A program made the translations under genes and the position numbers. A stretch of 64,000 nucleotides of DNA from Octopus vulgaris (Eukaryota): the NCBI GenBank assembly GCA_951406725.2, contig OX597821.1:25792001-25856000 (forward strand). The letters run 5' to 3'. The notes under the pieces are model-generated. The model ran no database searches. It saw nothing but the letters and a program-made list of their open reading frames with translations, and had not been told where the DNA came from. Numbering within the stretch: position 1 is the first letter of the stretch; each line of letters starts with the position of its first letter. Below are positions 17,994 to 53,045 of this stretch, in pieces.

Positions 17994-20154
17994 GCACACA
18001 CACACACACACAATATGCAGGCACACATTTTAAAAAAAAATCTTTTTTGGTTAGTAGGACAGGCAGTGCCTATGATCCTTTATAAGAATCTCTAAGACTA
18101 GCTGGAAAGAGGAAGGTATCCTCAAACCAGACTGCCTGGCCTGAATGCTTGCAACAAGATAGATTCCGATAAAGGCATCCTATGTAGGTGCTAGGTGGTG
18201 GTGTTAAACTAGGCGTTGGATTAAGGTTTTCTAATCAACTTAATTAGGAAGATAGATATTCCAGCAAAAAGTTTGAAGGTTAGTGGTTATTTATGCAGGA
18301 GTAGGCTTTGTCACTACATCGGAAAAGCTTTGACCCAAAATATATATCTCAACATGGAAAACATGCTAATCATCATCGCCAGCTACAAAAATAGGGGACA
18401 CAAATCACTTCTATCCTATACTGGAGAAGGTCTTGGTCAAACTCACACTCAACAGACTGGACCAATCTATATCAGAAACCATCACTCCAGAGTCACAATG
18501 CAGCTTACACAGGGATTGAGATACAATCAATATAATGTGCATTATAAATGCAGCTTCTAAGAAAATACAGAATGCAAGACCAGGACCTGCTCACTGGGTT
18601 TGTGGATCCGGCAAAGGTCTTCGAAATAACCAAGAAAGAAAGGGATCTTCTCTGAAACTTTAGTTGCTCGCCCTAGTTTGTGACTAGTCTTACATTTCTA
18701 CATTGCTATAATGGCTTAAGTTACTGTTGTTGAAGGGCAGAAATCTGAACCCAGATTCGGGTATAACTCTGTGCTGGCTCCTGTCTTGTGAGTCACTCAC
18801 TCCTTCCTCATTCTCTTGTGAATCAATGTTAAGCAGATGGATAGAAAGGAGAAATGCTAGTCACTTGTAACTACTGACTCGATGGAAACTTTTTCAATAT
18901 CAGAAAGCTGCCATCATCAAGTTCAGATCTGAACGTGTCATTGAATAACAGTTATTGGCTAAACTGGCAAAATGACCATTCCGAAATACAACAATATATG
19001 TTGATGACTGCTCTCTATAGCCTTCACTCAGGAAGACTTTCAAACCATAATTTCATTCACGCACAGCTTCGATATTCAGAGTGGTCTACCTCCTGAAAAT
19101 GTCGATCGTATTATAAATTTCTAACTAAAAGATTCAATTTTGCATTAATATCTGGTCCTAGATAGATAGAGAGGGCGGGGCAGTAAATAGTAAGAGAGAG
19201 AGAGAGAATAGTATTAGGTCATCCCTTAAATAGTCCAGCTTTTAATACTTCTTTTATTTTTCAAAATTAAGATAAAGTTATTTTTTTAATCTAAAATACA
19301 CACTCCTTCATTTTCTACAATGCTCTTCAATCTATCTTGTAGACTTGCAAGGCCCCTCTTCCAAAATTCACTTGTCTGTGATGAAAAATCTCCTCCAGTA
19401 CTGTCCTGATATTGAAATCAAAGATGATCGTTTTTCTTCTAGTGCTGACTTAAGCCGCTCAAGCTGCTCGCAGTAGATCTCCTTTGTTATCATTTGGTTT
19501 GGGTTTAAAAGTTCAAAGTGGACTAAACCTTTCATATCCCACCAAACAGAAAACAACACCTTACATGGGTGAAGACCTTCTTTAGCCTGGGGGGTGCTGG
19601 TGTTTCTCTTTACCAACCTACTGTCTTAGGTGCTTGACATTTTTATAGAGAAGCCATTTCTCATCACCAGTCACTATTCAGTCCAAAAAAGGTTCATTTG
19701 TGAGACGTGACAGCAAAGTAGAGCACACATTCACTCTCTGCGCACAATTAGACTTGGAAAGTTTGTGAGGAACCTGTTGACCCAATTTGCTGACTTTTCT
19801 GATGGCACGCAGGTGTTGATGAATGGTTGAATGACCAAATCCAAGCTTCTCTGCTAGTTCCCCAACAGTTTCAATGGAATTTTGTCCCACCAGGGTTTGC
19901 AGGACGTCCTCGTCGAGCTCTACAGATCTTCCAGGACGAGGCTTGTGTTCTTGGCTGTAGTTCCCGGTTTGGAATTTCTGGAAACACCATTGACACTAGC
20001 TTATGCTTATTATGATCCCCATGTACTGCATTAATATTCCTCGCACTTTCCGTTGTAAAATATGCCGAATATGCCCCTTTGTCACTTCCTTTATAGTTTT
20101 GAAAAAATAACTGAAAATCGAATAGCACTGTTCAAAACTTGCACTAAGAATAAG

Positions 20155-21752
20155 TAACTTTTAATTACCCACAAGGGGCTGGTATAGAGGGGACAACACA
20201 AAAACGTGGGGACACATAACATGAAAAAAATGAAATTAAAAAAATAAAATTAAAAATATGGTAACATGAATGATACATGAAAATGAAACATGAAAGTGAG
20301 TTGCTTGCCTCACCTCAAGTAGCAAAACTTATTTCCTTCTGAATCCCAAGTCCTTCAAAATGTCCAATCCGAATTTTTCTCAGTTCTTCATATTCTACTT
20401 TTACCGGTATCCTTTACAGGTTCACATCAGTTCTTCCTATATTTACAACCTTTTTTTGTATATTTTGCAATCACTTCCTTCAGGCTCTGAGACACGAGTA
20501 CACACATGTGCCAACCCACAACATTCGTGTATCCCTCCACATCCACAAATTTTGCTGTCTTCCTCCTTGTTACCTCATTTATTAGTTCCTCGTCTACATC
20601 CTCTCTCAACACACATACATAGCTATTTTCACAGGGGTGGCGGTGTATTTTGTGTGTTTTGTGATGTCTGTTTCTCTCTTTTTTTACATTGTGAAGGCAG
20701 GGAATGGGTGGGTTTGATGTCTGTGGGGAGAGGGTGGGTCTGAGAGGTTATGGATGGGGATGGCTTGGAGTTCCACATCACACTGTCCTTTCTTCCTTCT
20801 GCCACTGTCCATAATTCTTCCTTTTTCCTTTCTTCCATCTGTACCTCCTCTTGCTTCTTCTCCAACTCTTTATCCACTTTTTCCAGACTATGCTTCTGCG
20901 GAGGGCAGTGTGCTCTAATGTGGGCCTTTTGGCCACATTTAAAACAGCGAGGGATTCTTCTCTCCACTCACACTCTCAAGATTATGTCTCCCACAGTCAC
21001 CGTCTCCACTAAATCTTCCAAGGATTATACTTCAGCCTGAACAAGAAGTTCTAATGTTTTTCCTTTCCACATCATCTCCTCCGTTTCTGTGACTTGGAGG
21101 ACAGCCACTTCCTCCTCACTTCTGAGGAGGACAGCCGCCGCAACCCAAGCCATATCTGTGTCTGGCAAGATTCCCTCTACCCTGATCTTGGATGTCCTTC
21201 TTCCAAGATTCATGAGTAGAAGGACCACTTTATTCGACTTCACCGTGTTTACAGCCAGCCTCCTTGCTACTTCCTCCATCTTAAACTGGACCACCACCGT
21301 CCCATATTTGCTTCGTCTTGCCAAAAACACCATATCCTTAGATACCGCGCACAATGCCTTCTCAGTTGTTTCAGCTTCTACTAGGTCTACCTTTTTCTGT
21401 TCCACTAAATGAACATGCTTCATCATGTCCTCCATAACTTTCAGTGGAGATGATGACTTCATGTCACCACCTACTTTATGTGCCATTTTTTGATGTTCTT
21501 CCATTTCAGACAAGTCTATTTCATTCCTTTTTAACTCCAATTCCTCAGTGAAGCTCTTTTTTTTTTCCCCAACACATCTGTCCATTCTGTTTACTGCCTT
21601 TACTAATTCCTTCTCTGAAGTGGACAATTCCAACATGCTAAAGTCCAAATAGAACATTTTTCAATTAGCCATCGCTACCTCTCTGGGTAAACAGCTGCAA
21701 AGCAGCACAAAAATCGACACTTCAATACAACTCGATACATGTTAAAAAAATA
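20155..21752 (-). mobile_element. ORF1-only non-LTR retroelement 1 (L1/Tx1-type gag-like ORF1, no RT)
   Basis: ORFs 21657-21025 and 20967-20629 are in the same frame, split by one stop. The protein contains the zinc knuckle CFKCGQKAHIRAHC. The 3' end is gtcccctctataccagccccttgtgggtaattaaaa. Bounded by 20-bp direct repeats. Confidence 0.8.
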
Positions 21753-21772: not shown

Positions 21773-22921
21773 TTGATTTTTTTATTACCCACAAGGGGCC
21801 AACAAATAGGGGACATATAAAAACGGAAAAAAAAGGAAAAAATTATAAATTAAAATGTATGAGATACATGAATGATACAATGAAAATGAGCTACTTGCCC
21901 CACCTCATGTAGCCTCACTTGCTTCCTTTCATCTTTTAAATTCCGTGGGGTGGATATGGTTTGGGGTTCTACTTCATTCTGTCCTTTCTTCCTCTTCCTT
22001 TTTCTTCCTTCAGCCACCATTCACTGTTCTTTGTTTCTCTTTTCTTCCTGCTGCACCATCTCCGGCTCCTTTCCAACTTCCTCCTGACTTCTCTGCTTCT
22101 GTCAAGGGCAGTGTGACCTTTTTTTGCCACATTTAAAGCAACGAGGGGTCCTGCCCTTCACCCACACTCTCAACACTACATCTCCAATGGTCACCATTTC
22201 TACCACATTTTCTAGTGTTTCTGCAGTGCTCTGTATTATCAGGTCCAATGTTTGGCCTTTCTATACTGAATTTTCTGTTTTTGTGGCTTGGAGGATGGCT
22301 ACATCTATTTCCGGTGGGATTCCCTCCACCCTAATCCTTCTTCGAAGATAAGTGGGTAGAAGGACCACTTTATCCAACTTTACTATGGGTACCGTGTGTT
22401 TTTTTGCTTTCCCTTCTGTCTTGAAATGGACCACAATTGTTCCATATCTGCTTTTTCTGGCAAGGTATGTTATGTCTAGCCAGACGGAGCACAACAACTT
22501 TTCTATTATTTCTGCCTCAACATTTTCAATTTTCCTTCCTTCCACTGAGTACATCTTGTATATTACTGTCTTCTTTTCCATTTCTTCCAATACTTTCTGT
22601 GGCGGTGACAACTTAACGTCACCACCTATCCTACATGCCATTTTCTTGTATTTCTCCATGTTTGTCAAGTCCACCTCCCTTTTTGTGACTTCTGTCACTT
22701 CCACAAAACTTTTCTCCCTTAAGCACTTGTCCATTCTATCAACTGCTCGTATGAGCTCCTCCTCCGAAGAGGACAATTCGGACCCACTAAAGTCCGAATA
22801 GATCATGTTTCTTACTGTTGACATTGCTGACCCTCCTCACGGCGGAGAGAAAGCACAACCAGAAAACCTCTTCAAAGCAGCACAGCACACTCCTCAACAA
22901 AAAAAACAATCCTCACAGAAC
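21773..22921 (-). mobile_element. ORF1-only non-LTR retroelement 2 (diverged paralog of element 1)
   Basis: ORF 22824-22261 is homologous to element 1 and continues past the stop to RTPRCFKCGKKGH. The 3' end is gtcccctatttgttggccccttgtgggtaataaaaaaaa. Confidence 0.8.
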
Positions 22922-26053: not shown

Positions 26054-28918
26054 TTGCTGAACTTATATATATACCTGAAACCGGACATAGCAGATGCGGA
26101 GTTACACATACCACAGTATGCTGTACTACGGACCGACAGGAAAGAAAGGAGTCATGGAGGTGTTGCTATGTACATCCGTGAGGACCTCACACCCCAGGTC
26201 CTCTTGTCATACTCAAACTCGGTGTGTGACACACTAATTGTACATATTAGGCAACTTGATGTAGTTGTGTGTGCTACATATCGCCCTCCAGATGCCCCAA
26301 GCCATGTGGGCAAGTTCGAAGACTGCCTTATAAAAATAAAAGAAATTCTAACCACATTAGAACAACACATAGGTGTGCTTCTTATGGGAGACTTCAATCT
26401 GCCCAATGTCAGATGGCCCGAGGGCCTTTCTCTCCCAGGAATGACAAGATGTGAACGAGGACAGGCGAGGTCCCTCCTGAACCTCATCAACACCCTGTAC
26501 ATGGAGCAGGTAATACTCCAACCAACCAGGGCAGGTAACACACTGGATCTCTGCTTCACAAATGACATGGATCTCATCCATAATGTGAAAGTGACACCGA
26601 CACTACTCTCGGATCACAACATGATAGAGCTGACCATGTACGGGCCAAAAGAGAGCACGGACATGCAGCCTACAAGAAACCCTCAAAATCTTTCCAGCTT
26701 GAACTACCATAAGGCAAACTGGAAACAAATTGAGAAAGAGATCCTCAAACAAAACTGGCCTGAATGTCTCTCCTCGCCAGACATCGACGTGAAACTTCAA
26801 CAATTCATGTCTGTAATGCAAGCCATATGCTACAAATGTGTCCCAGAGAGAAAGGCCACTGTACACAAGAACAAAATCCCCAGAGAGAGGAAAATTTTAA
26901 TGAGACGGCGTACGAAATTTTCAAATCGCCTAAACAAACAGATTGAAAGCAGTGAAAAGTCCCACCTAAAAATAAAACTGTTGGAAATCGAAAAATGTCT
27001 GCAACTCTCCCATGAAAAAGAAAGAGCAGACAAAGAAGCCTGGGCTATAGAAAACATAAAATCTAACCCCAGAGCTTTCTACAGGTATGCCAAAGAAACA
27101 GCTACAGTGCACTGTAGAATAGGGCCACTCCTTGAAAAGGATGGCACACTTACAGGAAAACCAATGAGGGTAAGTGAAATACTGAATGAGCAATTCAAGA
27201 GTGTTTTCACTCCACCCCTTGGGCATCTCCAAATCACCAATCCAACTGACATTTTTACCACTGCAGATATAAAATCAGAGGCGGCGACGATAGATTACAT
27301 CGATATAAAGGAAGACGATGTAACCAAGGCTATAGATGAAATGAAAACAGACTCAGCTACGGGCCCCGATGGATTCCCGGCAATCCTCCTAAAAGCATGT
27401 AAGAGAGTCCTAGCAAGACCACTGCAGTTCCTCTTTCAGAGCTTCCTTGCAGCTGGCAAACTTCCAGGAAAACTGAAGGAAGGTAAAATATGCCCCATTC
27501 ATAAAGGAGGTAGCAGAGCGGAAGCCAAGAACTATAGACCTATCTCTCTGACCTCACACATCAGCAAGGTCATGGAACGAATAGTCAGAAGGAAGCTGAT
27601 CACCTTCCTTGAAGAGAATGACTTGCTGCCCGACACCCAACATGGTTTCCGACCAGGGAGAAGCTGTTTAACTCAGCTCCTACAACACTATGACTGGGTG
27701 CTGAAACGGCTGCTCAACCACTCAAATGTGGAAGTGATATATCTCGACTTTGCAAAGGCCTTTGATAAAGTCGATCATGGAATGATATGTCACAAACTGC
27801 GTGATCTCAACATAGTTGGAAAACTGGGAGAATGGCTTCATAACTTTCTGAAGGATAGAAGTCAGGTGGTAGTAGCCAATGGGGCCACCTCCATTAACAC
27901 ACAAATAGTGAGCGGTGTTCCGCAGGGCACTGTTCTGGGACCACTACTGTTCATAATGGCCCTCTCAGACATGCCCTCAGCCACGCAGAGAGCCACGATC
28001 ACAAGTTATGCAGATGATACAAAAGTCTCACAGGCAATACAGAACCCTGAGGACACTAAACACCTGCAATGTGAGCTGGACGAAATATACAAGTGGGCTG
28101 AAAAGAATAGCATGCAGTTCAATGCTGGAAAGTTTCAAGCTTTATACTATCAGCATGCAAAACTGAATGCAATACCCAATGAATACACTGGACCCGGAGG
28201 GATTGCAATCCCAGAGGCACAATCAGTGCGTGACCTGGGTATTCACATGAGTGATGACGCGACCTTTCATGTACATGTTGCTAAACTGACAATGAAATGT
28301 AGACGGCTGGCTGGATGGATTCTTAGAACCTTTAGAACAAGAGAACAAGAAACCATGATGGTCCTCTGGAAGACACTTGTCCTAAGCCACTTTGACTATT
28401 GCTCTCAGCTATGGTCACCATCCAGTGTCAAGTTGATCACAGAACTTGAGGTGATCCAACGAAGCTACACAAAGAAGATAGCCTCTATGCAGAATGTAAG
28501 CTACTGGGAAAGACTCAAGAGATTAAAATTATATTCCCTGGAGCGTAGGCGGGAAAGATATGCCATAATATACATCTGGAAGATCCTGGAGGGAAGTGTC
28601 CTGAACTTTGGCATCGAGAGTTACGCAAATGCCAGAACTGGGCGCCACTGCGTGGTGCCTAGGACTCCAAACCTGCCATCAAGATGTAGGACAAGATACT
28701 GTGATAGCCTGGGCTTCCGAGGCCCACAGCTCTTCAATATCCTCCCGAAGAACCTGAGAGACCTGCATGGGGTGGATACAGATGTCTTTAAAATGAAGCT
28801 GGATCTCTTCCTGTCAGGTGTCCCAGATGAACCAACTTCACGGCAGGAGGGGCAGATGAGGGCAGCTGCATCGAACTCTCTCATGCACCAAATAGCAGCT
28901 GCTAGAAAGCCTCCATGA
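26054..28918 (+). CDS. LINE ORF2 (N-terminally truncated APE endonuclease plus reverse transcriptase); the first ~7 codons are flanking DNA
   Basis: Motifs GGVAMYI, YRPP, GDFN, LDL, SDH (APE); [28 protein letters not shown] (RT); LERRRERY C-terminal motif; no stops over about 950 codons. Confidence 0.93.
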
Positions 28919-30239: not shown

Positions 30240-32070
30240 ATATAACATGATTTGGTTTAGAAGGAACAGAATGTTACAAGTAGTTTGGTTTTGCTTTATA
30301 TTTCTTTCAATGAGGTGAGTTTTCTTATTTAAAAATGTTAGAAATGATTAAGTTTTGGCTTATATTTTTCAATGAAGTAGGTTTCCTTATTTACTCTAAC
30401 TTGTGTTGGTGTTCCAATGGCACATTGATAGAATGGACAGATTACAAATTTTGGTAGCAGTTGCTTTGCGCATTTCTCAATATGTTCACTAAAGGGTATC
30501 ATTCTGTATTCTGGGAATGCAATCTGTTGTCGATGCAGAGTGCATCTGCATCTGAGCAATAATCCCGTGGACCCTATGTAGTGTTGGCGGCAGCCTGAGC
30601 ATCTTATGACATAAATCAGGTTTTCTGAAGTACAAGTAAAGTCAGATTTGATTTTGAATTTTTGTCACTCCTTGAAGAGGAATTCTGATCCTTCTAGAAG
30701 GTTTGGGCATGTTGTGCAATTTGGTCTACCACATTTTTAAACTTTTGCGTCCGTTATTTTAGAAAACAATTTTGCCTTTGTGAGGATCTTTTTTAGTGAT
30801 TTCGGTTGTTTGTAGCTTTTATTGATTTTATGTGTGTGTAAAATTTCCTTTAATTTGGAGTCCATATGTAGCATTGGTAAATTTTGGGTGATGATGGTGA
30901 AGGCTTCTTTGTTTCTGGGGTTGTATGTCGATATGTACGGCAGTATTTTCAGGGAAGGTGTGTTGCTGTGTTGAACTTTTCTTAAAGTTTCTATGTCGAT
31001 TTCTGTTGCATGTCTGATTCCACCCTCTATGAGTTGAATTGAACTGGGTAGTGTCTGTCAATTAGGGTGTTTTTGAGTTCTTGCAGTCTAAAGTTTCTGG
31101 TATTTTGTTCTGACACTATTGTGCATATCCTTCTTGCAAGGTTGAAGGGGATGTTTGTTTTGGTGTGTCTTGGGTGGCATGAATAAATAGTAGATATTGT
31201 TTGGCGTCTGTGGTTTTGTAAAATATGTCCGTTTCTATTTTTAGGTTTATTTTTTTAATTAGTATATCTAAGAATGGAAGCTCCTTTTGGTTGTACTCCA
31301 TTGTGAACTGTTTGTTTTGGTTGACGCTGCTCAATAGTCTTTTGAATTTCAGGAGTTTATCTGTGTTTTCATTCCAGAGTATGAAACAGTCATCTAGGAA
31401 TCTTTTCCAATTTTCTTTTATGTATTGGGAAAGGGGGTTTCCAAAGGTAGATAGAGATTCCTGATATATTATTACCTCCAGGTAGCCCATTGTTAGGTTC
31501 GCAATGACTGGTGCTGCCCTAATACCCATAGCAATTTCGGATTTTTGTTGGTAAAGCCTATTATCAAACATGAAGTGATTATTTTGTAGGATGAATTTAA
31601 CCAATTTAGTTGTGAATTCTTTACTGATCCTTTTTGATATTTCTTCCAGAAATTGGTCCAGCCAGAACTGAATTGCCTCTAGCCCATAATTATGAGGTAT
31701 ACTGGTATATAAATTAACTACATCAAATGAAACCATGATTGTTTCTTCCTTGACTTTTTTGGAAGGTGATTTAACATATCCAAGTCATATCTGATATGGC
31801 TATTGATGTGTTTAAGGAAGGGTTTCAGGATGATGTCCATAAATAGACAGTCTGTGTGTTTCACAGGCTGCGCCAGCTACAATGGGTCGTAGTTTTAGGT
31901 CCCCCGGGTTTTGTGTATGTATGTACATCTTTGGTGATTTTTTAATTGTTTTATTTATAATCTGGCTTTTGTGTATTTTTGGTAGACCATAGAAAAGGCT
32001 AGGTTTGCATTTAAAGTTTGTTAGAAAGTCTGTCTTTTTGGTTGTCAGTTCATTTCCATGGGTTTAATTA
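30240..32070 (-). pseudogene. Decayed Penelope-like element (RT plus GIY-YIG endonuclease)
   Basis: FYGLPKIH, LRPIVAG, SFDVVNLYTSIP, IAMG, RFLDD, LPFLD; CxxC linker; NLIYVIRCSGCRQHYIG at 30568-30622; frameshifts and stops. Confidence 0.9.
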
Positions 32071-35208: not shown

Positions 35209-35714
35209 ATATTCTTTTTTTCTGTTTTAAGTATAAAATAGGTAATTGCATTATATAGGTTTTATGCAATACAGAATGTTGGGGCGAAACTTCTTAAACA
35301 GTTTCGGGCAGTACACGGTACATCAAATATTTTTTTGAGTCAACCAATATTTCCTTGTTTACGTTGCCTATGCAAAGTCATTACTATATTGAATCAAACA
35401 TTACTATATCACATAATTTCATAATTTATACAATTATATATTTTATTGGTTGAAGATATTGAATAAATATACATATTTGGAATATTGTTTGTTTAGAAAA
35501 GTTTAACGACGTTCGTTTTTCGTAAATTAGTAATATTCTCTCATTCTGGTTCATGCGTTTTCTTTTGAGTTTACAGCTATAGTAGGAAGGATCGCCTTTG
35601 TTCTTTTATCTTCTCATTGTTCAAAATATTTTGTATTCGGTTCTTCTGGTTTAAAAACTATATTTTCTTTTAATTCTGGTTTCAAAAGAATTCATATTCT
35701 TAAAATACAACATA

Positions 35715-36033
35715 TATTTCTTTACTACCCACAAGGGGCTAAACACAGAAGGGGACAAACAAGGACAGACAAACGGATTAAATCGATTATATCGACCACA
35801 GTGCGTAACTGGTACTTAATTTATCGACCCCGAAAGGCATGAAAGGTAAAGTCTACCTCGGCGGAATTTTCTCGGAGTACAACAGGGGTGTCCCCCCCCC
35901 TGCCGGAGGCTAGTAGAGCTCTTAGGTGTTTTCGCTCAATAAACACTCACAACGCACGGTCTGGGAATCGAAACCGCGATCCTCCGACCGCGAGTCCGCT
36001 GCCTTAACCACTGGGCCATTGCACCTCCACCTA
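35715..36033 (-). mobile_element. Chimeric SINE: tRNA-Arg-like head of a third family joined to a family A 3' half
   Basis: Head ggtgcaatggcccagtggttaaggcagcggactcgcggtc...ggtttcgattccc; single 13-bp TSD aaaatacaacata. Confidence 0.75.
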
Positions 36034-36744
36034 AAAATACAACATAACAGAATCAATAATTACGTTAGTTGTTTCCAAGCATTTTTACCCTCTAGGATCT
36101 TTTAAATTAGCCGTGATTTTTGGCTTATTTTATTAATATGTAAATAATTTCTGAGTGTATCGTTAACTCAAAACAAATATATGAACCCACTATTTTACAT
36201 TTCCGAGATCTAACAGGACGAACTTAGGCACTGGAGGTCAATGTAAATGGAAAACTACCTTATCATACATAATTATAACTACAGGGTCTTCGTTTTTCAA
36301 AGTTAATCCGTTGATATCTTGTTAAGCTGTATGAAAGTTTACAGCGCATGGCCCTACTTTGTTCTGGCTATTTAATTAAATATTTTAATCAAAGGATCTG
36401 TTTTTATCTGAATGTCTGCAGCAACAGTAAATTCCATTTCAATATTTTTTTGCCAGAGAGTAAAATCAGAAATTCGTCAGCGCCTTTACAGTTATTGCTG
36501 AGATCAAAATACTGATTTTTTTCCCGACTACTCCGATCGATAAATTTGTACTAACACCCCCACCATTCTTTACGGTCTACAAGTTTGTTTGATTATTTCA
36601 TGCATGGCGTTCAGTAACGCGTTCATATTTTTCGTTCTTTTTCTGTTTTTCTGGAAGAAATTGGGAGTTTTTCTCTTCCACTGTCCGTGAAGGTGATAAC
36701 TGAATGTTAGTGTTAACCTGTTTCACACATATCAGTTATAGATG

Positions 36745-37204
36745 CTATTTCTTTACTACTCACAAGGGGCTAAACATAGAGAGGACAAACAAGGACATAC
36801 ACACGGATTAAGTCGATTACATCGACCCAGTGCGTAACTGGTACTTATTTAATCGACCCCGAAAGGATGAAAAGCAAAGTCGCCCTCGGCGGAATTTGAA
36901 CTCAGAACTTAACGACGAGCAAAATCCCTATTTCTTTACTACTCACAAGGGGATAAACACAGAGAGGACAAACAAGGGACAGACAAACGGATTCGACCCC
37001 GAAAGGATGACAGGCAAAGTCGCCCTCGGCGGAATTTGAACTCAGAACGTAACGATGAGCGAAATCCCTATTTCTTTACTACTCACAAGGAGATAAACAC
37101 AGGGAGGACAAACAAGGGACAGACAAACGGATTCGACCCCGAAAGGATGACCGGCAAAGTCGACCTCGGCGGAATTTGAACTCAGAACGTAGCGGCAGAC
37201 GAAA
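36745..37204 (-). mobile_element. Trimeric SINE family A array
   Basis: Units 36745-36927, 36928-37067 and 37068-37204. Confidence 0.9.
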
Positions 37205-37220
37205 ACACACAAATAGTTAC

Positions 37221-38102
37221 ATGTACGCTATGTTATTAATTTTATCTTTATTATTTTCCAACATGTTTTCTGCCTTCGGTTGGTCCTATGACCATCCCGA
37301 GCTTTGGGCAGACATATTTCCAAATTGCAATTTGTCTGCTCAAAGCCCCGTCAATATCGAGGTGGACTATGCTACATATGTTGACTGGTGGGGAACTGTA
37401 ACGTATTTTAATACGAAGAACAACAGTAAAGTGGAATATTTTTTGTTTATCAGCGAAAGTGTTTTGAAAGTACAAATATATGGGAATTTGGTATTAGATA
37501 GCAGAAGTCTTCCGGTGATTTTTCAAACTCTTCAGCTCCATTTCCACTGGAGGAATAACAATATCACACATGGATCTGCACATTATATTGATGGCAAAGG
37601 ATTTCCACTCGAAATGCAAGTTATTAATAAAAATTCCTACTACAGAGATTTAACCACCGCAGTACATTATCCGGATGGTTTCGCAATAATGGCATTTTTC
37701 TTTGAAATAGAATTTCATGATAACCCCTTGCTCAATAAAATTATTGACCTTCTTCCTAATTTAGGTTCAAGATCAATGCAAGTGGAAGGCTTCAATCTAA
37801 GTGAATTAATGCACGAAGGACTCAGAAAAAACCATTTCTTTCAGTACAACGGTAGCATACCAATTCCTCCTTGCAACGAGTGTGTCATCTGGATCATTGT
37901 TAAGAATCCTCTTTCGATATCACCAAGACAACTCGAGAAAATCTGGAAATTGAGCAAGAGAGTTGATATGTTTGATACTAACGTCCGTCCAGTTCAACCA
38001 ATTTACGAGCGATTAGTTTGGAAGAATTTCTCAGCGGCTGATAAAGCCATCAGTTCTTGCTTTTTGTCTCTTATTTCTTACAATATCATGTATTTAACTT
38101 GA
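37221..38102 (+). CDS. Intronless alpha-carbonic-anhydrase-related protein (293 aa), with signal peptide and possible GPI signal, probably non-catalytic
   Basis: Hydrophobic N-terminus; WSY, C..QSPVNI, QLHFHW, GSAH, PLEMQV, YNGSIPIPPC, NVRPVQP motifs; hydrophobic C-terminus; AATAAA at 38406. Confidence 0.88.
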   Translation: MYAMLLILSLLFSNMFSAFGWSYDHPELWADIFPNCNLSAQSPVNIEVDYATYVDWWGTVTYFNTKNNSKVEYFLFISESVLKVQIYGNLVLDSRSLPVIFQTLQLHFHWRNNNITHGSAHYIDGKGFPLEMQVINKNSYYRDLTTAVHYPDGFAIMAFFFEIEFHDNPLLNKIIDLLPNLGSRSMQVEGFNLSELMHEGLRKNHFFQYNGSIPIPPCNECVIWIIVKNPLSISPRQLEKIWKLSKRVDMFDTNVRPVQPIYERLVWKNFSAADKAISSCFLSLISYNIMYLT

Positions 38103-38620
38103 AAATATTTAATATCTTTGCTTTCCAATGTATTCACTTCTTGTGGAAAAAGGAATATGAAAAAAGAATAACATTTTTTTTTTTTTTACATTGGGCAAGT
38201 TAAAAAAAAAATCATTTTATGTTTTAAAAAAAGTTTTTCCATTCTTTGATGATGACTTTTTGAATTTTCTTCTTGTTGAGTAAAAACTGTATTTGTATTT
38301 TGTTCATTTTAGAGATGGTTATTCATAGCCAAAGCTGTATATAATTACTAAATTGGTGTAATTTGAAGTTGTTTTTGTTGTTAGTTTTACCGCTAATTGT
38401 AAAGTAATAAAAAGATATTAAAGGAAGAGATTTGCAATCGACATTCATTAATCAAGATGTTAATGAAGACTGAAATATTTCTGGGACCACTTACTTTTTT
38501 CTATCAGTTATAACTTCTCTTTTTTTTTTTAATGTTATTTCAAAATAAGTGTATGTGAGGCATGGATGGATCTTAGGTTGTTAGAACTTACTTCAAATTT
38601 CAATATTAATCCTTATGTCA

Positions 38621-39692
38621 GGGCGGCGAGCTGGCAGAAACGTTATCATGCCGAAGGCGGCGAGATGGCAGAATCGTTAGCACGCCGGGCGAAATGCTTA
38701 GCGGTATTTCGTCTGCGTTACGTTGTGAGTTCAAATTCCGCCGAGGTCGACTTTGCCTTTCATCCTTTCGGGGTCGATAAATTAAGTACCAGTTACGCAC
38801 TGGGGTCGATGTAATCGACTTAATACCTATGTCTGTCCTTGTTTGTCCCCTCTGTGTTTAGCCCCTTGTGGGTAATAAAGAAATAGGTATTTCGTCTGCC
38901 GCTACGTTCTGAGTTCAAATTCCGCCGAGGTCGACTTTGCCTTTCATCCTTTCGGGGTCGATAAATTAAGTACCAGTTATGCGCTGGGGGTCGATGTAAT
39001 CGCCTTAATCCCTTTGTCTGCCTTTCCTTGTTTGTCCCCTCAGTGTGTAGCCCCTTGAGGGCAGTAAAGAAATAAGAATCGTTATCATACAGGGCAAAAT
39101 GTTTAGTGGCTTTTCATCCGTCTCTTCGTTCTGATTTCAAATTTCGCCGACGTCCACTTTGCCTTTCATCATCCTTTCAGGGGCGATAAAATGAGTACCT
39201 GCTGAAAGCTGTGGTCGAAGTAATCAATTTACTAACTCCCTAGAAATTGCTGGCTTTGCGCCTAAATGTGGGATCTTTTCGGTTTGAATGGCAGTTTTTA
39301 ACATAATTTCTAGGTAACTAAAAAATTTTAAACTTCTTATACTGGTAGAATGTGTTTATAAAACATCTTTTTCTCTTGGCTTTATTGAGAAAATTCTATA
39401 GTTTGTAAGATATTTGTTGTTTTTTTCTTCAATTTCTGAAATTTCAACCAATCAATGACGTCCATTGAAGTAAAATGCATTCTGTGTCGTATGAATATGT
39501 CCCTCGTTTAAGAAACAGATTGGGTTTATTTACATTTGTGAAGAAAAAAAGATACCCTTCCCCCCAGCCCCAGCCCTAAAACAGATTGAAATGCAATAGA
39601 TCGATACTAGGGTCATAATTATGGGTGACAATTTCATATAACACCGCTAGAAAAAACTGCTGTTCAAACCGAAAAGATCCTAAATGTGAAAC
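38621..39692 (+). mobile_element. Older SINE A' containing a dimeric SINE A (38654-39075) and MITE M copy 4
   Basis: Inner TSD gaaacgttatcat/gaatcgttatcat; outer TSD caatattaatcct/cagtattaatcct. Confidence 0.8.
39271..39680 (+). mobile_element. MITE family M, copy 4
   Basis: TIRs; perfect TSD TAAATGTG. Confidence 0.95.
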
Positions 39693-39980
39693 CAGTATTA
39701 ATCCTAATGGACTATTAGAAAACCTTACACCTTCAGAAGACGGTTTAAAACTTGACCAAAATCCAAAGAAACTAGTCTGATAGAATATTAGTGATGGAAG
39801 TTCACATAGATAAGTGCGTGTATGCCAGTAGCAAGAGTTATGTTTGTCATATTGTCTGAAATGGTTAAAAAATTTTTTTTTTTTTAATGGCAGCTTCCAT
39901 TTTATGAAGCTCCAAATGTTATATATTAAAACTAAAAGAGTTGCTGGGACTGGTTCTGGGGACAGTGTAGAGGAACCACT

Positions 39981-40383
39981 GGATCTTTTCGGTTTGAATG
40001 GCAGTTTTTTCTAGCGGGGTCATATGAAATTGTCACCCATAATTATGACCCTAGTATCGATCTATTGCATTTCAAACTGTTAAGGGTGGGGGAAGGGTAT
40101 CTTTTTTTCTTCAGAAATGTAAATAAACCCGATCTGTTTCTTAAACGAGGGACATATTCATACGGCACAGAATGCTTTTTACCTCAATGGACGTCAGTGA
40201 TTGGTTGAAATTTCAGAAATTGAAAAAAAAAAAACAAGAAATATCTTACAAACTATAGAATTTTCTCAATAAAGCCAAGAGAAAAAAATGTTTTATAAAC
40301 ACATTCTACCAGTATACGAAGTTTAAAATTTTTTAGTTACCTAGAAATTATGTTAAAAACTGCCATTCAAACTGAAAAGATTT
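39981..40383 (-). mobile_element. MITE family M, copy 5 (inverted)
   Basis: TIRs; perfect TSD GAACCACT. Confidence 0.95.
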
Positions 40384-41122
40384 GAACCACTTAATCTCCA
40401 ATAGCAATAAAACAGTCTATTTCCCTCTTATGATAACTTTTGTAATTTACCCATGTATACCTTCGTCATATTCTCAGTATGAAGCTAGTGCAGAATTTCA
40501 CCTATGAAATCTCTTTTGAACCAAGAAATACTTCAGCTTCTAACAACTAGTAACTCTCTATAAAGTTCGAGTGAGACTCAGAATGGCTTAGTCTTGTTGT
40601 TTCACATTCTGGAGCCCCTTCCAAAGAAAAACCCTCTTGATTGATTAGCATTAATTCTTTCAGAAGCACACACTAACCTTTAGTTCAAAAGACATCCTGT
40701 TTTCTTTCTCTGTCTCTCCCCACTCTCTCTCTCTTCCATGACCACTATTGTAGCATCATATCTTTGGTCATATGTCTAGTCTCTAGTCAACAACGCTTAG
40801 GCATTCCTGACACACCTGTGCCTCCTTCTCTCAATCACACATATTGTGTTTCCACAAGTTTTTCTCTCACCACTCTTCTCAGGACCCAACTACACAGTAC
40901 TTCGGTCTGGTGCACGGAGAATCAAAGAGAAATCTGTAATATAAAATGTCTTCAAATTTGAGGAATTAGTTGATATTTCAGATATTTGGGACTTCTGTGA
41001 ATTTTATTTATTTGTTGGTCTCTTTATATTTTTAAAATTATCTTTACCAGGAATTAACATTTTTACTTTAGAATGATAACTTAGCATAGGATTATCAATT
41101 TCACTGAGATAACACATTTTTC

Positions 41123-41536
41123 GGATCTTTTCGGTTTGAACGGTAGTTTTTAACATAATTTCTAGGTAACTAAAAAATTTTAAACTTCGTATACTGGTAG
41201 AATGTGTTTATAAAACATCTTTATCTCTTGGCTTTATTGAGAAAATTCTATAGTTTGTAAGATATTTGTCGTTTTTTTCCTTCAATTTCTGCAATTTCAA
41301 CCAATCAATGAAGTCTATTGAGGTAAAAAAAAATATTCTGTGTCGTATGAATATGTCCCTCGTTTAAGAAACAGATTGGGTTTATTTACATTTGTGAAGA
41401 AAAAAAGATACCCTTCCCCCCAACCCTAACCCTAAAACAGATTGAAATGCAATAGATCGATACTAGGGTCATAATTATGGGTGACAATTTCATATGACAC
41501 CGCTAGAAAAAACTGCCATTCAAACCGAAAAGATCC
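41123..41536 (+). mobile_element. MITE family M, copy 6
   Basis: TIRs; perfect TSD CATTTTTC. Confidence 0.95.
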
Positions 41537-41563
41537 CATTTTTCTACCTTAAAAATTGATTAA

Positions 41564-43069
41564 CTCCTTTAATAACAACCTGCCTGTCCTTGGTTCTATA
41601 ATACAAAAACTTACTGTTTTAAAGGAATCTAAATTAAAACTTTCCATCAAAACTTAATGTTAATTTATTTTACAAACACTAGCTTAATAACGACATTGTT
41701 CATCATCGTCATCGTTTAACATCCGCCTTCCATGCTAGCATGGGTGGGACGGTTTCACAAGCCAGCCAGGCAGTAGCCTGCACTAGACTTCTGTGAGTGT
41801 TTTGGCAGGATTTTTACAGCTGGATGCCCTTCCTGACATCAGCCACTCAGCAGAGTGGACTTAGTGATTTTAGATGCTACAAGCACAGGCGAGGTCAGTT
41901 TTGGCAAGGTTTTTACAGTTGGATGCCTTTCCGAACACCAACCACTTTACAGTGTGGACTGGATGCTTTTAAGTGGCACCTGCATTGACAGGGTCACCAA
42001 GTAGTTGCAAGACAAGAAAAAAAAAAACTTTCAAGAGAGGAGGAGGTGATCTTGTGTTGGATGATGAAATGTTATAGTGAGACAGATACAGGTGCCTTGC
42101 TATAAAGGAAGTACAAAGTTACTTGGATAGAGAGAGAGAGAGATCAGGAATGAAGACAGATGTGCTACTGCAAAGGAAATAGACGGTTACTCAACCCGAG
42201 GGAAGTGCAGGAGAAGGAGAGAGAGAGAGAGAGAGAGTGGGTTACAGCAGGATAGAGATGGTGGCAAAATGCTAGGATTACTCACAAGGGATGGGGATCA
42301 GAATATAAATGAGATATGAGAGAGATACAGGTGATGGCAAGTGCCTTGACGGTCAAATGTCCTAAGTGGCAGGATATTGCAAAGGAAGTGTGATTAAAGA
42401 ATGTGGATGTGGGGGAGTGAGTGGCAAAAACCTGGGTATATATATAGAGTTGGGGAGGCTACTGGATGGCAGTGATACAGAAGAACAGAGCCGTGAGGAC
42501 AGGATTGGGGAGTGAGAGTTAGGTATAGTGTATGAAGGAGGAAATGTGAGAAAGAGAAGAAATGTGGAGTTGTAGATTGGGTTGTTGGGGTAGGGTGAAG
42601 GAAAAGTTTACTTGTTACATGTGGGTGGAACACACAGTTTGGGGGCTAGCAGAGAGCAATAATATCGTGAGATAGGGCGTGCGGCTAGAACACTGGTTAG
42701 GGGCAAGCAGAGAGCAGTGGTACAGTGACACAGGGCCAAGAGGACAGGATTGGAGAGTGGGAGGTAAGCATAGTGCATGAAGTGGAAATGTGAGGAAGAG
42801 ATTTAGAGACGTAGTTTGGTTTGTTGTTGAGTGTGTGAGAAGTTTTCTTGTTAAGTGTGGGTGGGACACACAGCGCTTCTGGAACTCAGTTTTGCTGACG
42901 TAGGTGGGTCTCTTCAAGAACTTCATATTGCCAGACATCACGGTCCATTGTCATTTCCACTGTGAGGCCCAACTTCCTGAGATTTGTTATTTTACTAAAT
43001 TCTTCATTGTTTTGAAAATTGAAAACAAAGGCAATGTATTATCTCAACAAAAATATGGTCACAAAAGGC
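41564..43069 (-). mobile_element. Old piggyBac-like MITE split by an RTE insertion
   Basis: 41564-41700 and 42986-43069 align to the reverse complement of 60534-60754. Confidence 0.6.
41701..42985 (-). mobile_element. 3' fragment of an RTE-clade LINE with a long 3' UTR and (GAT)n tail
   Basis: ORF end LRKLGLTVEMTMDRDVWQY at about 42985-42890; pyrimidine-rich UTR with a diverged tandem duplication; tail aggaagggcatccagctgta...catgctagcatggaaggcggatgttaaacgatgac. Confidence 0.65.
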
Positions 43070-43873
43070 TTCATCATTAGGATAAATTATCACATGTGAA
43101 CAACAATCATAATGTATGTCAGAGATCCACCTTGGTTATAAATGTGTTTTTTTAATGAGATTTTTGCTATTTAACGATACCATTTAACTAATATTTGTTT
43201 TTATAATTCAAGATACATTTATTTCTTCAGCACATTATAAAAGTGAAGAATTTAGATTGAATGAATAAATCAGCTTGTAATATGGCACCTATTTATGACA
43301 AGGCATAGTCAAGTCATCGTCATTGGTAGAATTTAGCTTGAAATGAAATGAAATGTGTCTTGTACTCTCTTCAGTTTTATTTGGTCACTATTTACAAATT
43401 CTTCCTTGAATGTTTTTGAGAATGTTTCAAGTTTATTATATTTACTGAATTTTAAATTAAAATATTTTTCACTTTGAATTCTTTCCGTTATTTTTGTTAT
43501 TGTTTAATTTTTTGAATAGTCTAAAAACTGTCATTTATTTTTTTAATTTTTAATTAATAATTTAAAGTCTGCGATATTCATAGTTAAATAGTTTCAAAAA
43601 TGTCTATGTGACACTTCTACATTTAACAACCATTGTTTCATATGAAATTCACTGTTAGGATTAAATTGGACAAAAGACAATATTTTTTTTAATAATTTCT
43701 AATTTCGTTTGGCTATTTCTAATTAATGGCTTTGGAATGGATAATAAATATTAGGAATTATTATTATTGATAATAGTAGAAACCTTACTTTATGGTCAGA
43801 TTAATTGTGTCAGATATAAAGTTGGTGCTTGTTCTCTCCATGTATTTGTCAACCTTCAATACATAATCTAAAG

Positions 43874-45335
43874 CAGTGGTTCTCAAACTGAGGTCTGTGG
43901 TCCCCTAGGGAACCACAAAGTGATTTTAGGGGGATTGCAAAGGGATGCTGAAGTATCATGAAAACAGGTAGCTTGAGACAGTTAAAAAAATTCAAGACTT
44001 CCAGTTTTTTGCATGCTATCATCCTTTTTTGCTGTTGACTTTACAACTCCATGCCACTCATACACACTCGTTTACTAATCAAACTTGGTGTACTACAAGT
44101 GTGATTGGTTGATGGAAAAAATGCAGGTATAATGGTTGATTGTGCATATGCTGTCACTATTCTACACTCACATGATTCACCACTCCACTACTACTATCCA
44201 TGCATTTGCATGTCTCTCATTGTCATTTTCCTTACTGGTGCATGTTCTTGCGTGACCTTGCCCTTTGCCAGACACATTTGCATCCTGCATGTTGGCAGGG
44301 ATTTATAAGCCATGGTTGTTTTTCGTGGCAATGTATTCTGACAGAACTGTCATCTTAATGGTTATCAATTTAGAGATTTATATACAAAAAAACAAGCTTT
44401 GGATTTCTTCCACAATTAATAGTGAGAGGTAAGCTTTATTGCTAATTGGTACACCCAAAAAGCTAGCTACAATAAGGCATATATGCACACCTATAGTATA
44501 TGATAAATGCAAAATAAATATTCAATGTAGTTATATTAAATTTGTTTACTGAATTTTATCTTTGTTTCTCAATGTCTCTCAAAAAAAAAATGTGATATGA
44601 CAAATCTTATTTGAATTTCAATTTTACTGTGATAAAATCTGGTAGAGAAGAGAAACCACAATATGTTTTGTGCTCTGAAATTTTGGCATCTACTTCACGA
44701 AAGCCCAGCAAGTTAAAGAGGTACTTTGAAACAAAGCATCCCAGTTCAATAGAGATGTCAACTTCTTCAGACATGAAGCTGACAGATTGACGACATCCAG
44801 ACTTGATGACACAGGAATGTTTTTGCTGGACATTACAACTGGTTTGAAAGCATTCTACAAGGTTTCAAGGAAAATAGCTGTTGCCAAAAACCCCCACAAT
44901 ATCAGCAAAGAGTTGATATTGCTTTGCTGCAAAGATACCATATGGAATGTACTGAGAAGTTCTAAACTTCAGAAGCTGAAGTATGTCTCTCTCTCTCTCT
45001 CTCAAACAATACTGTAAGCAGGTGAATACCATTAGCTGTTTGATAACTTTCTGTCGCAAGTGGTCTCGAAGATTCACAATTCACTTTTTAACTTTTTCGT
45101 GATTCAGCTTGATGAAATGACAGATGTTGCCGACTTAGTCCAACTTTGCGTCTATGTACATTATGTACAATAACAATCACCTGGAAGACAAGTTCCTGTT
45201 TTGCAAAACCCTCAGCACCAAAACAACAGCAAGGGAAATATTAAACAAAGTGGACAAATTTTTTGAGGCACACGATATCAACTGAGAACATGTCCCTGGT
45301 GTGTGCACCAAATGGCACTCTGGCAATGCTGCTGT
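43874..45335 (+). mobile_element. Decayed hAT (Charlie/Buster-type) transposon
   Basis: TIR start cagtggttctcaaact; fragments KPSKLKRYFETKHP, KNPHNISKELIL, IQLDEMTD, FLFCKTL. Confidence 0.8.
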
Positions 45336-52334: not shown

Positions 52335-53045
52335 GAGAGAGTCAGTTTAGACGGAGAGGGTCATAGCCCAACTAATTAGGGAGAGAGTCAGTTTAGATGA
52401 GATGCAGTTTGGGTTCGTGCCAGGGAACAGCACCACTGATGCTATATTTCTGGTAAGACAGCTGCAAGAGAAATACCTAGCCAATGATAAACCTCTGTAC
52501 CTGGCTTTCGTTGATATGGAGAAAGCCTTTGACAGGGTCCCCCGATCCCTTATCTGGTGGTCAATGAGGAAACTAGGTATAGATGAACGGTTGGTGAGAG
52601 TTGTGCAAGCCATGTACAGAGATACTGTCAGTAAGGTGAGGGTTGGCAATGAGTACAGTGAAGAATTCCGGCTAGACGTAGGGGTCCACCAAGGTTCAGT
52701 CCTCAGCCCCCTCCTTTTTATCATAGTTCTCCAGGCAATAACAGACCTTGCTCTAATTGCTGAGTCATTATGAGAACCAGACGAGAAGTTTCAGGTGTGG
52801 AAGCAAGGATTAGAATCAAAGAGCCTTAGAGCCAACCTAGCTAAAACCAAAGTCCTAGTAAGTAGGAAGGCAGACAATCCACAAATCCCTTCAGGTAGAT
52901 GGCCTTGCTCGATCTTACCTCTGCTGGTGATAAAGAACCTCTCCCTCAGAGTAAAAGGTAGACTGTATGACGCATGCTACATGGCAGTGAAACATGGGCC
53001 ATGACTGCTGAGGACATGCGTAAGCTTGCAAGGAGTGAAGCCAGA
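52335..53045 (+). pseudogene. RTE-clade LINE RT fragment with internal deletions
   Basis: QFGFVPG, AFVDMEKAFDRVPR, GVHQGSVLSPLLF; the YADD region is deleted. Confidence 0.9.

What the first reader, a model, noticed from the sequence alone, without database searches (positions are those of the whole stretch)
37221..38102. Intronless, catalytically dead, surface-type carbonic anhydrase
Seen (human CA II numbering): His94 and His96 are kept (QLHFHW), but His119 is Gln (EMQV), Glu106 is Ala (GSAH), Thr199/Thr200 are Pro/Ile (GSIPIPPC), and no His64 is evident. The signal peptide, the disulfide cysteines typical of secreted CAs, several N-glycosylation sequons, the hydrophobic C-terminus and the full reading frame are retained. 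A-to-I recoding cannot restore these codons (CAA, GCA, CCA). Established: acatalytic CA folds act as binding modules (CA10/CA11 with neurexins; PTPRG/PTPRZ1 with contactins). Inference: an independently inactivated retrogene repurposed as an extracellular ligand or adhesion protein.
Basis: partly seen in the sequence, partly recalled or inferred. Interest (0 to 1): 0.75.

Follow-up and report, generated by a model that had tools for sequence, protein, structure and literature searches.

The report
Octopus dead carbonic-anhydrase retrogene
An octopus genome holds an intron-free carbonic anhydrase gene whose catalytic residues are replaced but whose frame and fold core are kept in three octopus-like lineages; it is likely transcribed and likely makes an enzymatically dead surface protein, a lineage-specific repeat of a familiar evolutionary trick whose partner is unknown.

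Summary
Observation confirmed. Window 37221-38102 is one open 293-codon alpha-carbonic anhydrase frame (Pfam 1.9e-54; predicted fold pLDDT 91) with H94/H96 kept and H64S, E106A, H119Q, T199P and T200I. The 11 other CA loci found in this genome match exon by exon, so a retrocopy is likely. The best parent candidate is a spliced gene with an intact site on contig C1 (34-37% identity; trees weak). Only two relatives turned up among 1.84 billion representatives: Octopus bimaculoides (70%) and an unnamed protein (60%). All three share the H64-loop change, E106A and T199P, but zinc ligands were lost separately (H119Q here, H96Y in the unnamed one, none in O. bimaculoides). Catalysis was therefore probably lost through second-shell residues first. 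It is not a simple pseudogene: frames stay open at 30-40% divergence, fold-core columns are kept, and 4 of 6 coding variants are silent. Three transcriptome-sized runs of one study cover about 36000-43490 unspliced. Corrections: H119Q alone does not kill activity; the anchor tail is truncated and unstable; the old cleft shows no new constraint; no binding partner is shown. Dead CA folds have arisen repeatedly. Modest interest.

The parts
37221..38102 (+). Single-exon ORF, 293 aa, alpha-carbonic anhydrase fold, likely pseudoenzyme
   Evidence: one contig spans it without a joint in each of five laid runs (X3-X7)
37221..37280 (+). Predicted signal peptide (residues 1-20, cleavage likely after AFG)
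   Evidence: by eye; predicted helix 2-18; similar in both relatives; no SignalP run
37281..38033 (+). CA domain W21-S271 with the C36-C218 pair and six sequons
   Evidence: pLDDT mostly over 90
37449..37460 (+). ISES replaces NNGH (N62, H64 proton shuttle lost); identical in all three orthologues
37539..37547 (+). HFH: H94 and H96 kept here (H96 is Tyr in the unnamed relative P0003)
37578..37580 (+). E106A (GCA), shared by all three orthologues
37617..37619 (+). H119Q (CAA), only in this lineage; both relatives keep His
37860..37865 (+). T199P (shared by all three) and T200I (Val in the relatives)
38034..38099 (+). Predicted GPI-type tail (small residues after S271, spacer, moderately hydrophobic end)
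   Evidence: the rule for GPI signals is recalled; no NetGPI run
38103..38141 (+). Remnant of a longer tail behind the stop codon, like the last residues of P0003
36750..37205 (+). Array of a dispersed high-copy repeat (SINE-like; label recalled) just before the ATG; apparently absent in P0003's source, whose N-terminal extension matches window 36603-36745 and runs straight into the start
   Evidence: ends approximate
35995..43489 (+). Likely transcribed span (about 1.2 kb leader, ORF, about 5.4 kb 3' part); strand inferred, not shown
   Evidence: contigs of runs X4-X6 at depth 30-496 inside; long unique pieces outside at depth 2-4 or none; the genome-sized run X3 goes on at depth 36-50

Best explanation
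This is an intron-free carbonic anhydrase gene with replaced catalytic residues, likely a retrocopy of a spliced membrane-type CA, that likely encodes an enzymatically dead but folded glycoprotein predicted to sit on the cell surface and likely acting there as a non-catalytic binding or scaffold protein. Steps: (1) shown: single exon, CA fold by sequence, residue changes, three orthologues. (2) Inferred: an mRNA of the C1-type GPI-tailed CA was reverse-transcribed and inserted in an octopod ancestor. (3) Inferred: on the long stem branch it lost the proton shuttle (H64), the gatekeeper pair (E106, T199) and the polar wall of the cleft; zinc ligands then decayed separately per lineage. (4) Supported: selection keeps the frame, the fold core, the disulfide pair and two sequons. 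(5) Likely: it is transcribed as a long unspliced RNA. (6) Predicted: secretion and a GPI anchor, or release if the shortened tail fails. (7) Untested: it binds a protein or glycan partner through its surface, not necessarily through the old cleft.
For: Retrocopy: 1 of 12 CA loci found matches the whole Pfam profile in one frame; the other 11 match only in exon-sized pieces (36 matches of 51 candidates). Best paralogue is C1:98.52-98.54 Mb, with 7 coding exons joined in script, an intact site, 34-37% identity and 155-177 bits. The other 10 paralogues, only partly recovered, score 90 bits or less. It shares a 1-residue insert after HFHW and a 2-residue insert before YFRY, and is sister or in the sister group in two trees (82/78; 87/85). 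Dead site: E106, T199, T200, H64, H119 and V121 are 93-100% conserved in 106 family rows and all changed here. E106A alone cuts the CA II rate constant 110-fold (PMC4420525, passage). Two different zinc ligands were lost in 2 of 3 orthologues. Constraint: neutral simulation keeps the core stop-free in 1.1% of runs at the O. bimaculoides distance and 0.3% at the P0003 distance (20000 runs each). Identity among the three rises from 28 of 72 in variable columns to 45 of 60 in family-conserved columns (rho 0.31, p 7e-7). Six coding variants against related runs are 4 silent and 2 replacement (p 0.016-0.045); coding divergence is 0.68% against 1.9% in three unique flank pieces (p 0.009). Transcription. 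Fold.
Against: No activity, localisation or binding data. His-to-Gln/Asn zinc-site mutants of CA II are said to keep activity (PMC6639325 section 29; title of Lesburg 1997 in a reference list). O. bimaculoides keeps all three His. The former cleft is not more conserved than background (10 of 18 versus 126 of 249, p 0.81). Constant-but-different columns (8 of the 23 family-conserved columns that changed) are no more frequent than identity in variable columns (28 of 72). Parentage is unresolved: an open polytomy, and pairing with a long-branch snail protein P0241 (94/84); P0241 was among 13 rows left out. AU tests do not reject grouping with the CARP-like genes (p 0.354, 0.149). No poly-A remnant, target-site duplication or DNA similarity to the parent is left; the blastn hits printed were all repeats. 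The tail differs in all three orthologues. Runs X4-X7 are of unrecorded kind and from one study; strand is not shown. The variant test rests on 6 sites.
Confidence: 0.55

Rival explanations
1. The protein is dead as an enzyme but works as a non-catalytic helper in acid-base transport (a proton antenna or CO2/bicarbonate-sensing partner of a transporter), not as an adhesion ligand.
For: [quoted passage not shown] The likely parent is a membrane-type CA. The hydrophobic pocket residues V121, V143, L198, V207 and W209 are kept or conservatively changed.
Against: No transporter link was tested. H64 is gone. Fast change (70% identity between two Octopus species) fits a conserved transporter partner less well than CARPs do (98-100% human-mouse for VIII and X, PMC2873310 passage).
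Confidence: 0.15
2. It keeps weak CO2 hydration or esterase activity, or binds zinc for another purpose.
For: H94, Q92, E117 and W209 are kept in all three; O. bimaculoides keeps the full His triad. Single His-to-Gln changes are reported as tolerated.
Against: Four or more lesions stack in one site. E106A costs 110-fold alone and T199P about 3000-fold (recalled; paper not held). Different zinc ligands are lost in two lineages, so the triad is not maintained.
Confidence: 0.12
3. It is a transcribed processed pseudogene, or a gene now decaying, carried along in a long RNA.
For: 30% protein divergence within one genus, a nonsense truncation and a frameshift in the tail, and a repeat array just before the start. 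No peptide of it was among the 32 of 36 CA mentions seen in a skin-mucus proteome table that was cut when stored.
Against: Open core frames in three lineages (neutral chance 1.1% and 0.3% from stops alone), conservation that tracks the fold, an excess of silent variants, and coding DNA less divergent than flanks with no coding indel listed.
Confidence: 0.07
4. Its function is as in the best explanation, but it is an older molluscan dead-CA lineage that lost its introns, not an octopod retrocopy of the C1 gene.
For: A Physella acuta CA-like protein (P0241) with its own H64-loop change and H119Q joined the clade at 94/84 in one tree. The stem is long (0.9-1.2 changes per column) and identity to C1 is only 35%.
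Against: P0241 keeps E106 and T199, has the longest end branch in that tree (1.5) and is not among the ten best BLASTP hits. The best outside hit in that BLASTP is P0216, the C1 orthologue (36%, 181 bits). No member was seen outside the three.
Confidence: 0.11

Closest known systems
Membrane-type alpha-carbonic anhydrases (CA IV/XII-like; Pfam PF00194), here the spliced C1 paralogue
   Same: Fold, signal peptide, C23-C203-type disulfide pair, short hydrophobic tail directly after the last strand; two shared inserts with C1.
   Different: No introns; H64, E106, H119, T199 and T200 replaced; only 34-37% identical to C1; weaker, unstable tail.
CARP VIII, X, XI (CA8, CA10, CA11) and invertebrate CARP X-like genes
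   Same: CA fold without a full zinc triad (the CARP definition in PMC2873310, passages); signal peptide as in the secreted CA10/CA11.
   Different: Not grouped with the five CARP-like genes of this genome in four trees (not rejected by AU test); fast evolving rather than ultraconserved; lacks the about 25-residue Cys tail that links CA10 to neurexin (PMC8024894, passages); shared lesion is E106/T199/H64, not the His ligands.
CA-like domains of PTPRG and PTPRZ1
   Same: Extracellular inactive CA-like domain; contactin binding is recalled, not read here.
   Different: Stand-alone 293-aa protein without fibronectin, transmembrane or phosphatase parts; the contactin-binding surface was not tested.
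Molluscan alpha-CAs with substituted zinc ligands (for example mussel MgNACR)
   Same: His substitutions in secreted molluscan CAs are already reported (PMC6639325 section 29).
   Different: That paper found no cephalopod sequence in the nacrein group; this gene is single-exon, with a membrane-type tail.
Vaccinia D8 surface protein (recalled, no call)
   Same: A dead CA fold anchored at a surface and used as a glycosaminoglycan binder: a working model only.
   Different: Viral and transmembrane; no comparison was run.

Membership tests
alpha-carbonic anhydrase fold (PF00194) | Full-length profile match and CA fold | tested here: met
   185 bits against cut-off 27; model pLDDT 91, TM 0.72-0.78 to the 50 listed CA structures
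active alpha-CA | Zinc triad H94, H96, H119 | tested here: not met
   H119Q here; H96Y in P0003; intact in O. bimaculoides
active alpha-CA | Gatekeepers E106 and T199, shuttle H64 | tested here: not met
   A, P and S in all three orthologues
active alpha-CA | CO2 hydration and zinc binding | not testable with these tools
   needs an assay
CARP (VIII/X/XI) clade | Missing at least one zinc His | tested here: met
   H119Q in the window protein; not met by the O. bimaculoides orthologue
CARP (VIII/X/XI) clade | Orthology to a CARP clade | tested here: inconclusive
   Apart from the five CARP-like own genes in 4 of 4 trees; AU p 0.354 and 0.149; those rows are only about 40% filled, no vertebrate CARP was in the trees, and the CARP-like label is recalled from motifs
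CA10/CA11 neurexin ligands | Conserved C-terminal tail with the cysteine that bonds to neurexin | tested here: not met
   Tail is hydrophobic and differs among orthologues; P0003 has no tail Cys
GPI-anchored CA IV type | Signal peptide plus C-terminal GPI signal | tested here: inconclusive
   Pattern fits by eye; hydropathy 1.86 against 2.7-3.0 in comparison proteins; no predictor available
retrogene | No introns, with a spliced parent elsewhere | tested here: met
   single exon on C8; candidate with 7 recovered coding exons on C1
retrogene | Nested in or sister to the parent lineage | tested here: inconclusive
   82/78 and 87/85 in two trees, other placements in two
retrogene | Poly-A remnant and target-site duplication | tested here: inconclusive
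   No DNA similarity to the parent beyond repeats; too old to expect these marks; no dedicated search
functional gene (not pseudogene) | Purifying selection and expression | tested here: met
   small counts, RNA nature of the runs inferred

The most novel reading that the evidence does not exclude
An octopod-specific, fast-evolving cell-recognition protein (for instance on gametes or a specialised epithelium) was born from a retrocopied GPI-type carbonic anhydrase. It was switched off through the gatekeeper residues before the zinc site decayed, so the three species capture successive stages of pseudoenzyme birth.
Probability: 0.2. Interest if true: 0.6.

Novelty: new variant of a known kind. 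Interest (0 to 1): 0.36.

Why it matters
It adds an independent and apparently young origin of a dead carbonic anhydrase. Unlike CARPs, the shared lesion is in second-shell residues, and one species still has the full zinc triad. Databases call that orthologue a carbonic anhydrase, so a 'three His present' rule would mislabel it. With the likely active parent in the same genome, it is a neat test set for how an enzyme becomes a pseudoenzyme, and a candidate octopod novelty gene. It does not change what is known in principle: inactive CA folds have arisen many times.

Tried and rejected
No listed holder in the run search was on record as RNA (8 of 24 rows held the stretch or part of it, 0 recorded as RNA). 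Two RNA-guess runs held only short low-depth pieces (217 and 261 bases). The tissue could not be determined. A first fold on 9 sequences was poor (pLDDT 53) and was replaced. The idea of a new constrained ligand site in the old cleft was tested and not supported. ATTAAA at 43456 near the end of coverage is weak: 13 such hexamers lie in 38100-44000. No host gene was found: of 162 low-repeat frames of 70 aa or more, 141 were scanned with Pfam; 5 had a match (2 reverse transcriptase, 1 transposase, 2 weak), and short exons would be missed. No spliced leader was seen among the joints shown, but 1533 joints were not shown. The ESM Atlas gave only generic chordate CA clusters. Codon-based dN/dS against O. 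bimaculoides was impossible (no DNA held). Paper searches for the orthologue's accessions and for carbonic anhydrase + cephalopod + retrogene returned 0; searches listed nothing on this gene. The O. bimaculoides gene ids in the supplement of PMC6639325 could not be mapped to the orthologue, so it may be listed there. The two primary mutant papers are not held. No complex prediction was run, as no partner is claimed. Three look-ups of earlier findings were empty.

Full report
Observation. The window holds one open frame of 293 codons at 37221-38102 on the + strand. Pfam PF00194 covers residues 25-270 at E 1.9e-54, and the best solved relatives are human CA XII and CA II. A model built on 109 sequences has mean pLDDT 91 and matches CA structures at TM 0.72-0.78 in the 50 rows listed. 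In 106 family rows these positions are E 106 of 106, H 105, T 104, T 104 and H 99. CA II numbers were assigned from motifs. The genome is an octopus: the closest named protein is from Octopus bimaculoides, and peptides labelled Octopus vulgaris in a published table match exons of two paralogues letter for letter.

Relatives. Three word-based searches and one full HMMER pass over 1.84 billion representatives gave only two close relatives: O. bimaculoides A0A0L8GUI8/XP_052826225.1 (69-70%) and an unnamed assembly protein P0003 (60%). The next single-domain hit scores 204 bits against 577-581. The three form one group at 100 support on a stem of 0.9-1.2 changes per column. P0003's N-terminal extension matches window 36603-36745 read across frames. 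This supports orthology and suggests that the repeat array at about 36750-37205 came later. All three share ISES, E106A and T199P. The zinc ligands differ: Q119 here, Y96 in P0003, all three His in O. bimaculoides. The simplest order is loss of the gatekeepers and shuttle first, then separate decay of the ligands (inference). That no squid or cuttlefish member was seen may reflect what the collections hold.

Retrocopy. A Pfam search of the genome gave 36 matches among 51 candidates, which group into 12 loci. Only this locus matches the whole profile in one frame; the other 11 match in exon-sized pieces. The protein search found one full-length copy. The closest paralogue lies on C1 at 98.52-98.54 Mb. 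Its seven recovered coding exons give an intact catalytic site and a strongly hydrophobic tail, 34-37% identical to the three. It shares two small inserts with them, which its likely kin P0216 and P0235 also have. Trees are weak: sister to C1 at 82/78 (39 rows); sister to C1+P0216+P0235 at 87/85 (30 rows after 13 were left out, P0241 among them); unresolved (quick tree of 68 rows); or paired with the long-branch snail protein P0241 at 94/84 (43 rows). Five other genes of the genome form a tight group that I label CARP X-like from recalled motifs. The finding never joined them, but AU tests did not reject the join (p 0.354, 0.149), and those rows are only about 40% filled.

Selection. Under a neutral model the core would stay free of stops in 1.1% and 0.3% of 20000 runs at the two observed distances; assumed indel rates lower this further. 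The three orthologues are identical in 28 of 72 variable columns and 45 of 60 family-conserved columns. Related runs differ from the window at six coding sites, 4 silent and 2 replacement (binomial p 0.016-0.045). Coding divergence is 6 of 882 against 54 of 2785 in three unique flank pieces of run X4 (p 0.009; a fourth, more divergent piece was left out as possibly repetitive), and no coding indel was listed. Against a new ligand pocket: the 18 cleft positions are identical in 10, the domain overall in 126 of 249 (p 0.81). The tail is labile. The window stops where P0003 has Trp, and the O. bimaculoides tail corresponds to another frame of the same DNA (read by hand). All three tails remain hydrophobic to some degree. 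Two sequons (N37, N67) and the C36-C218 pair are shared by all three.

Expression. Runs X4-X6 are of unrecorded kind, from one study, and assemble to 62-68 million letters against a 2.8-billion-base genome. Their contigs cover about 35995-43489 at depth 30-496, with one contig across the whole ORF and no joint in it. The long unique pieces listed beyond 43500 have depth 2-4, and the bin 35242-35697 has none. The genome-sized run X3 has pieces at depth 36-50 inside and outside; X7 also spans the ORF. This pattern is what RNA would give, but contigs show no strand, no ends and no level, and one study is not independent confirmation. The tissue is unknown.

Mechanism. In CA II, zinc is held by H94, H96 and H119; T199 orients the hydroxide and bonds to E106; H64 shuttles the proton; E106A lowers the rate constant 110-fold (PMC4420525, passages; PMC12069641 and PMC12205326, passages). 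H119Q alone is not fatal (PMC6639325 section 29; Lesburg 1997 seen as a title only). T199P costing about 3000-fold is recalled. With all of these together I put inactivity near 0.88. A kept signal peptide, disulfide pair, glycans and CA IV-like tail point to the cell surface (predicted). A constrained fold without catalysis most simply means a binding or scaffold role (inferred); no partner is shown, and a transport-helper role as reported for CARPs (PMC6609565, abstract and start of introduction) remains open.

Comparison and novelty. It works like other dead CA folds but is not filed as a CARP or a neurexin ligand. Orthology is unsupported, CARPs are ultraconserved (PMC2873310, passages), and the CA10 cysteine tail is missing (PMC8024894, passages). 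His-substituted CAs are already known in molluscs (PMC6639325, passages, section 29 and supplement hits). Eight paper searches (listings only unless named above) showed no account of this gene. The library lacks most subscription journals, one supplement was cut when stored (PMC10138644; passage and 32 of 36 table places seen), and preprint supplements are closed. Verdict: a real, likely expressed, independently inactivated octopod CA retrogene; a new variant of a known kind; interest 0.36.

Noticed in passing
window 26168-28918 (+): Open 916-aa frame with endonuclease and reverse transcriptase domains: an apparently intact LINE ORF.
   Followed up: no
window 19371-19625 (-), 31119-31784 (-), 52351-52770 (+): Transposase and reverse transcriptase fragments; no cellular gene domain elsewhere in the frames scanned.
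   Followed up: partly
window 21025-21657 (-) and 22261-22824 (-): Two similar-looking ORFs of 210 and 187 aa without a Pfam match, perhaps remnants of a mobile element.
   Followed up: no
L024, L017 (G000:C11 about 72.57-72.59 Mb): A second, spliced CA paralogue with H94 replaced by Ala and T200 by Phe: another likely damaged catalytic site; its neighbour at 72.46-72.49 Mb has T200Y.
   Followed up: partly
L007, L008, L009, L011, L012: Five CARP X-like genes (label from recalled motifs) on four contigs form one strongly supported group, which suggests an expansion of dead CAs in this genome.
   Followed up: partly
protein P0241 (Physella acuta XP_059162362.1): A snail CA-like protein with its own H64-loop change, H119Q and T200Y: either another independent inactivation or a distant relative.
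   Followed up: partly
L035-L038 (G000:C1 98.517-98.541 Mb): The parent candidate carries a peptide listed under A0A6P7SNP5 in an octopus skin-mucus proteome, so that protein is made.
   Followed up: partly
window 36603-36689 (+): Upstream ATG with a short frame that matches the start of P0003's N-terminal extension; a possible upstream ORF in the leader.
   Followed up: no
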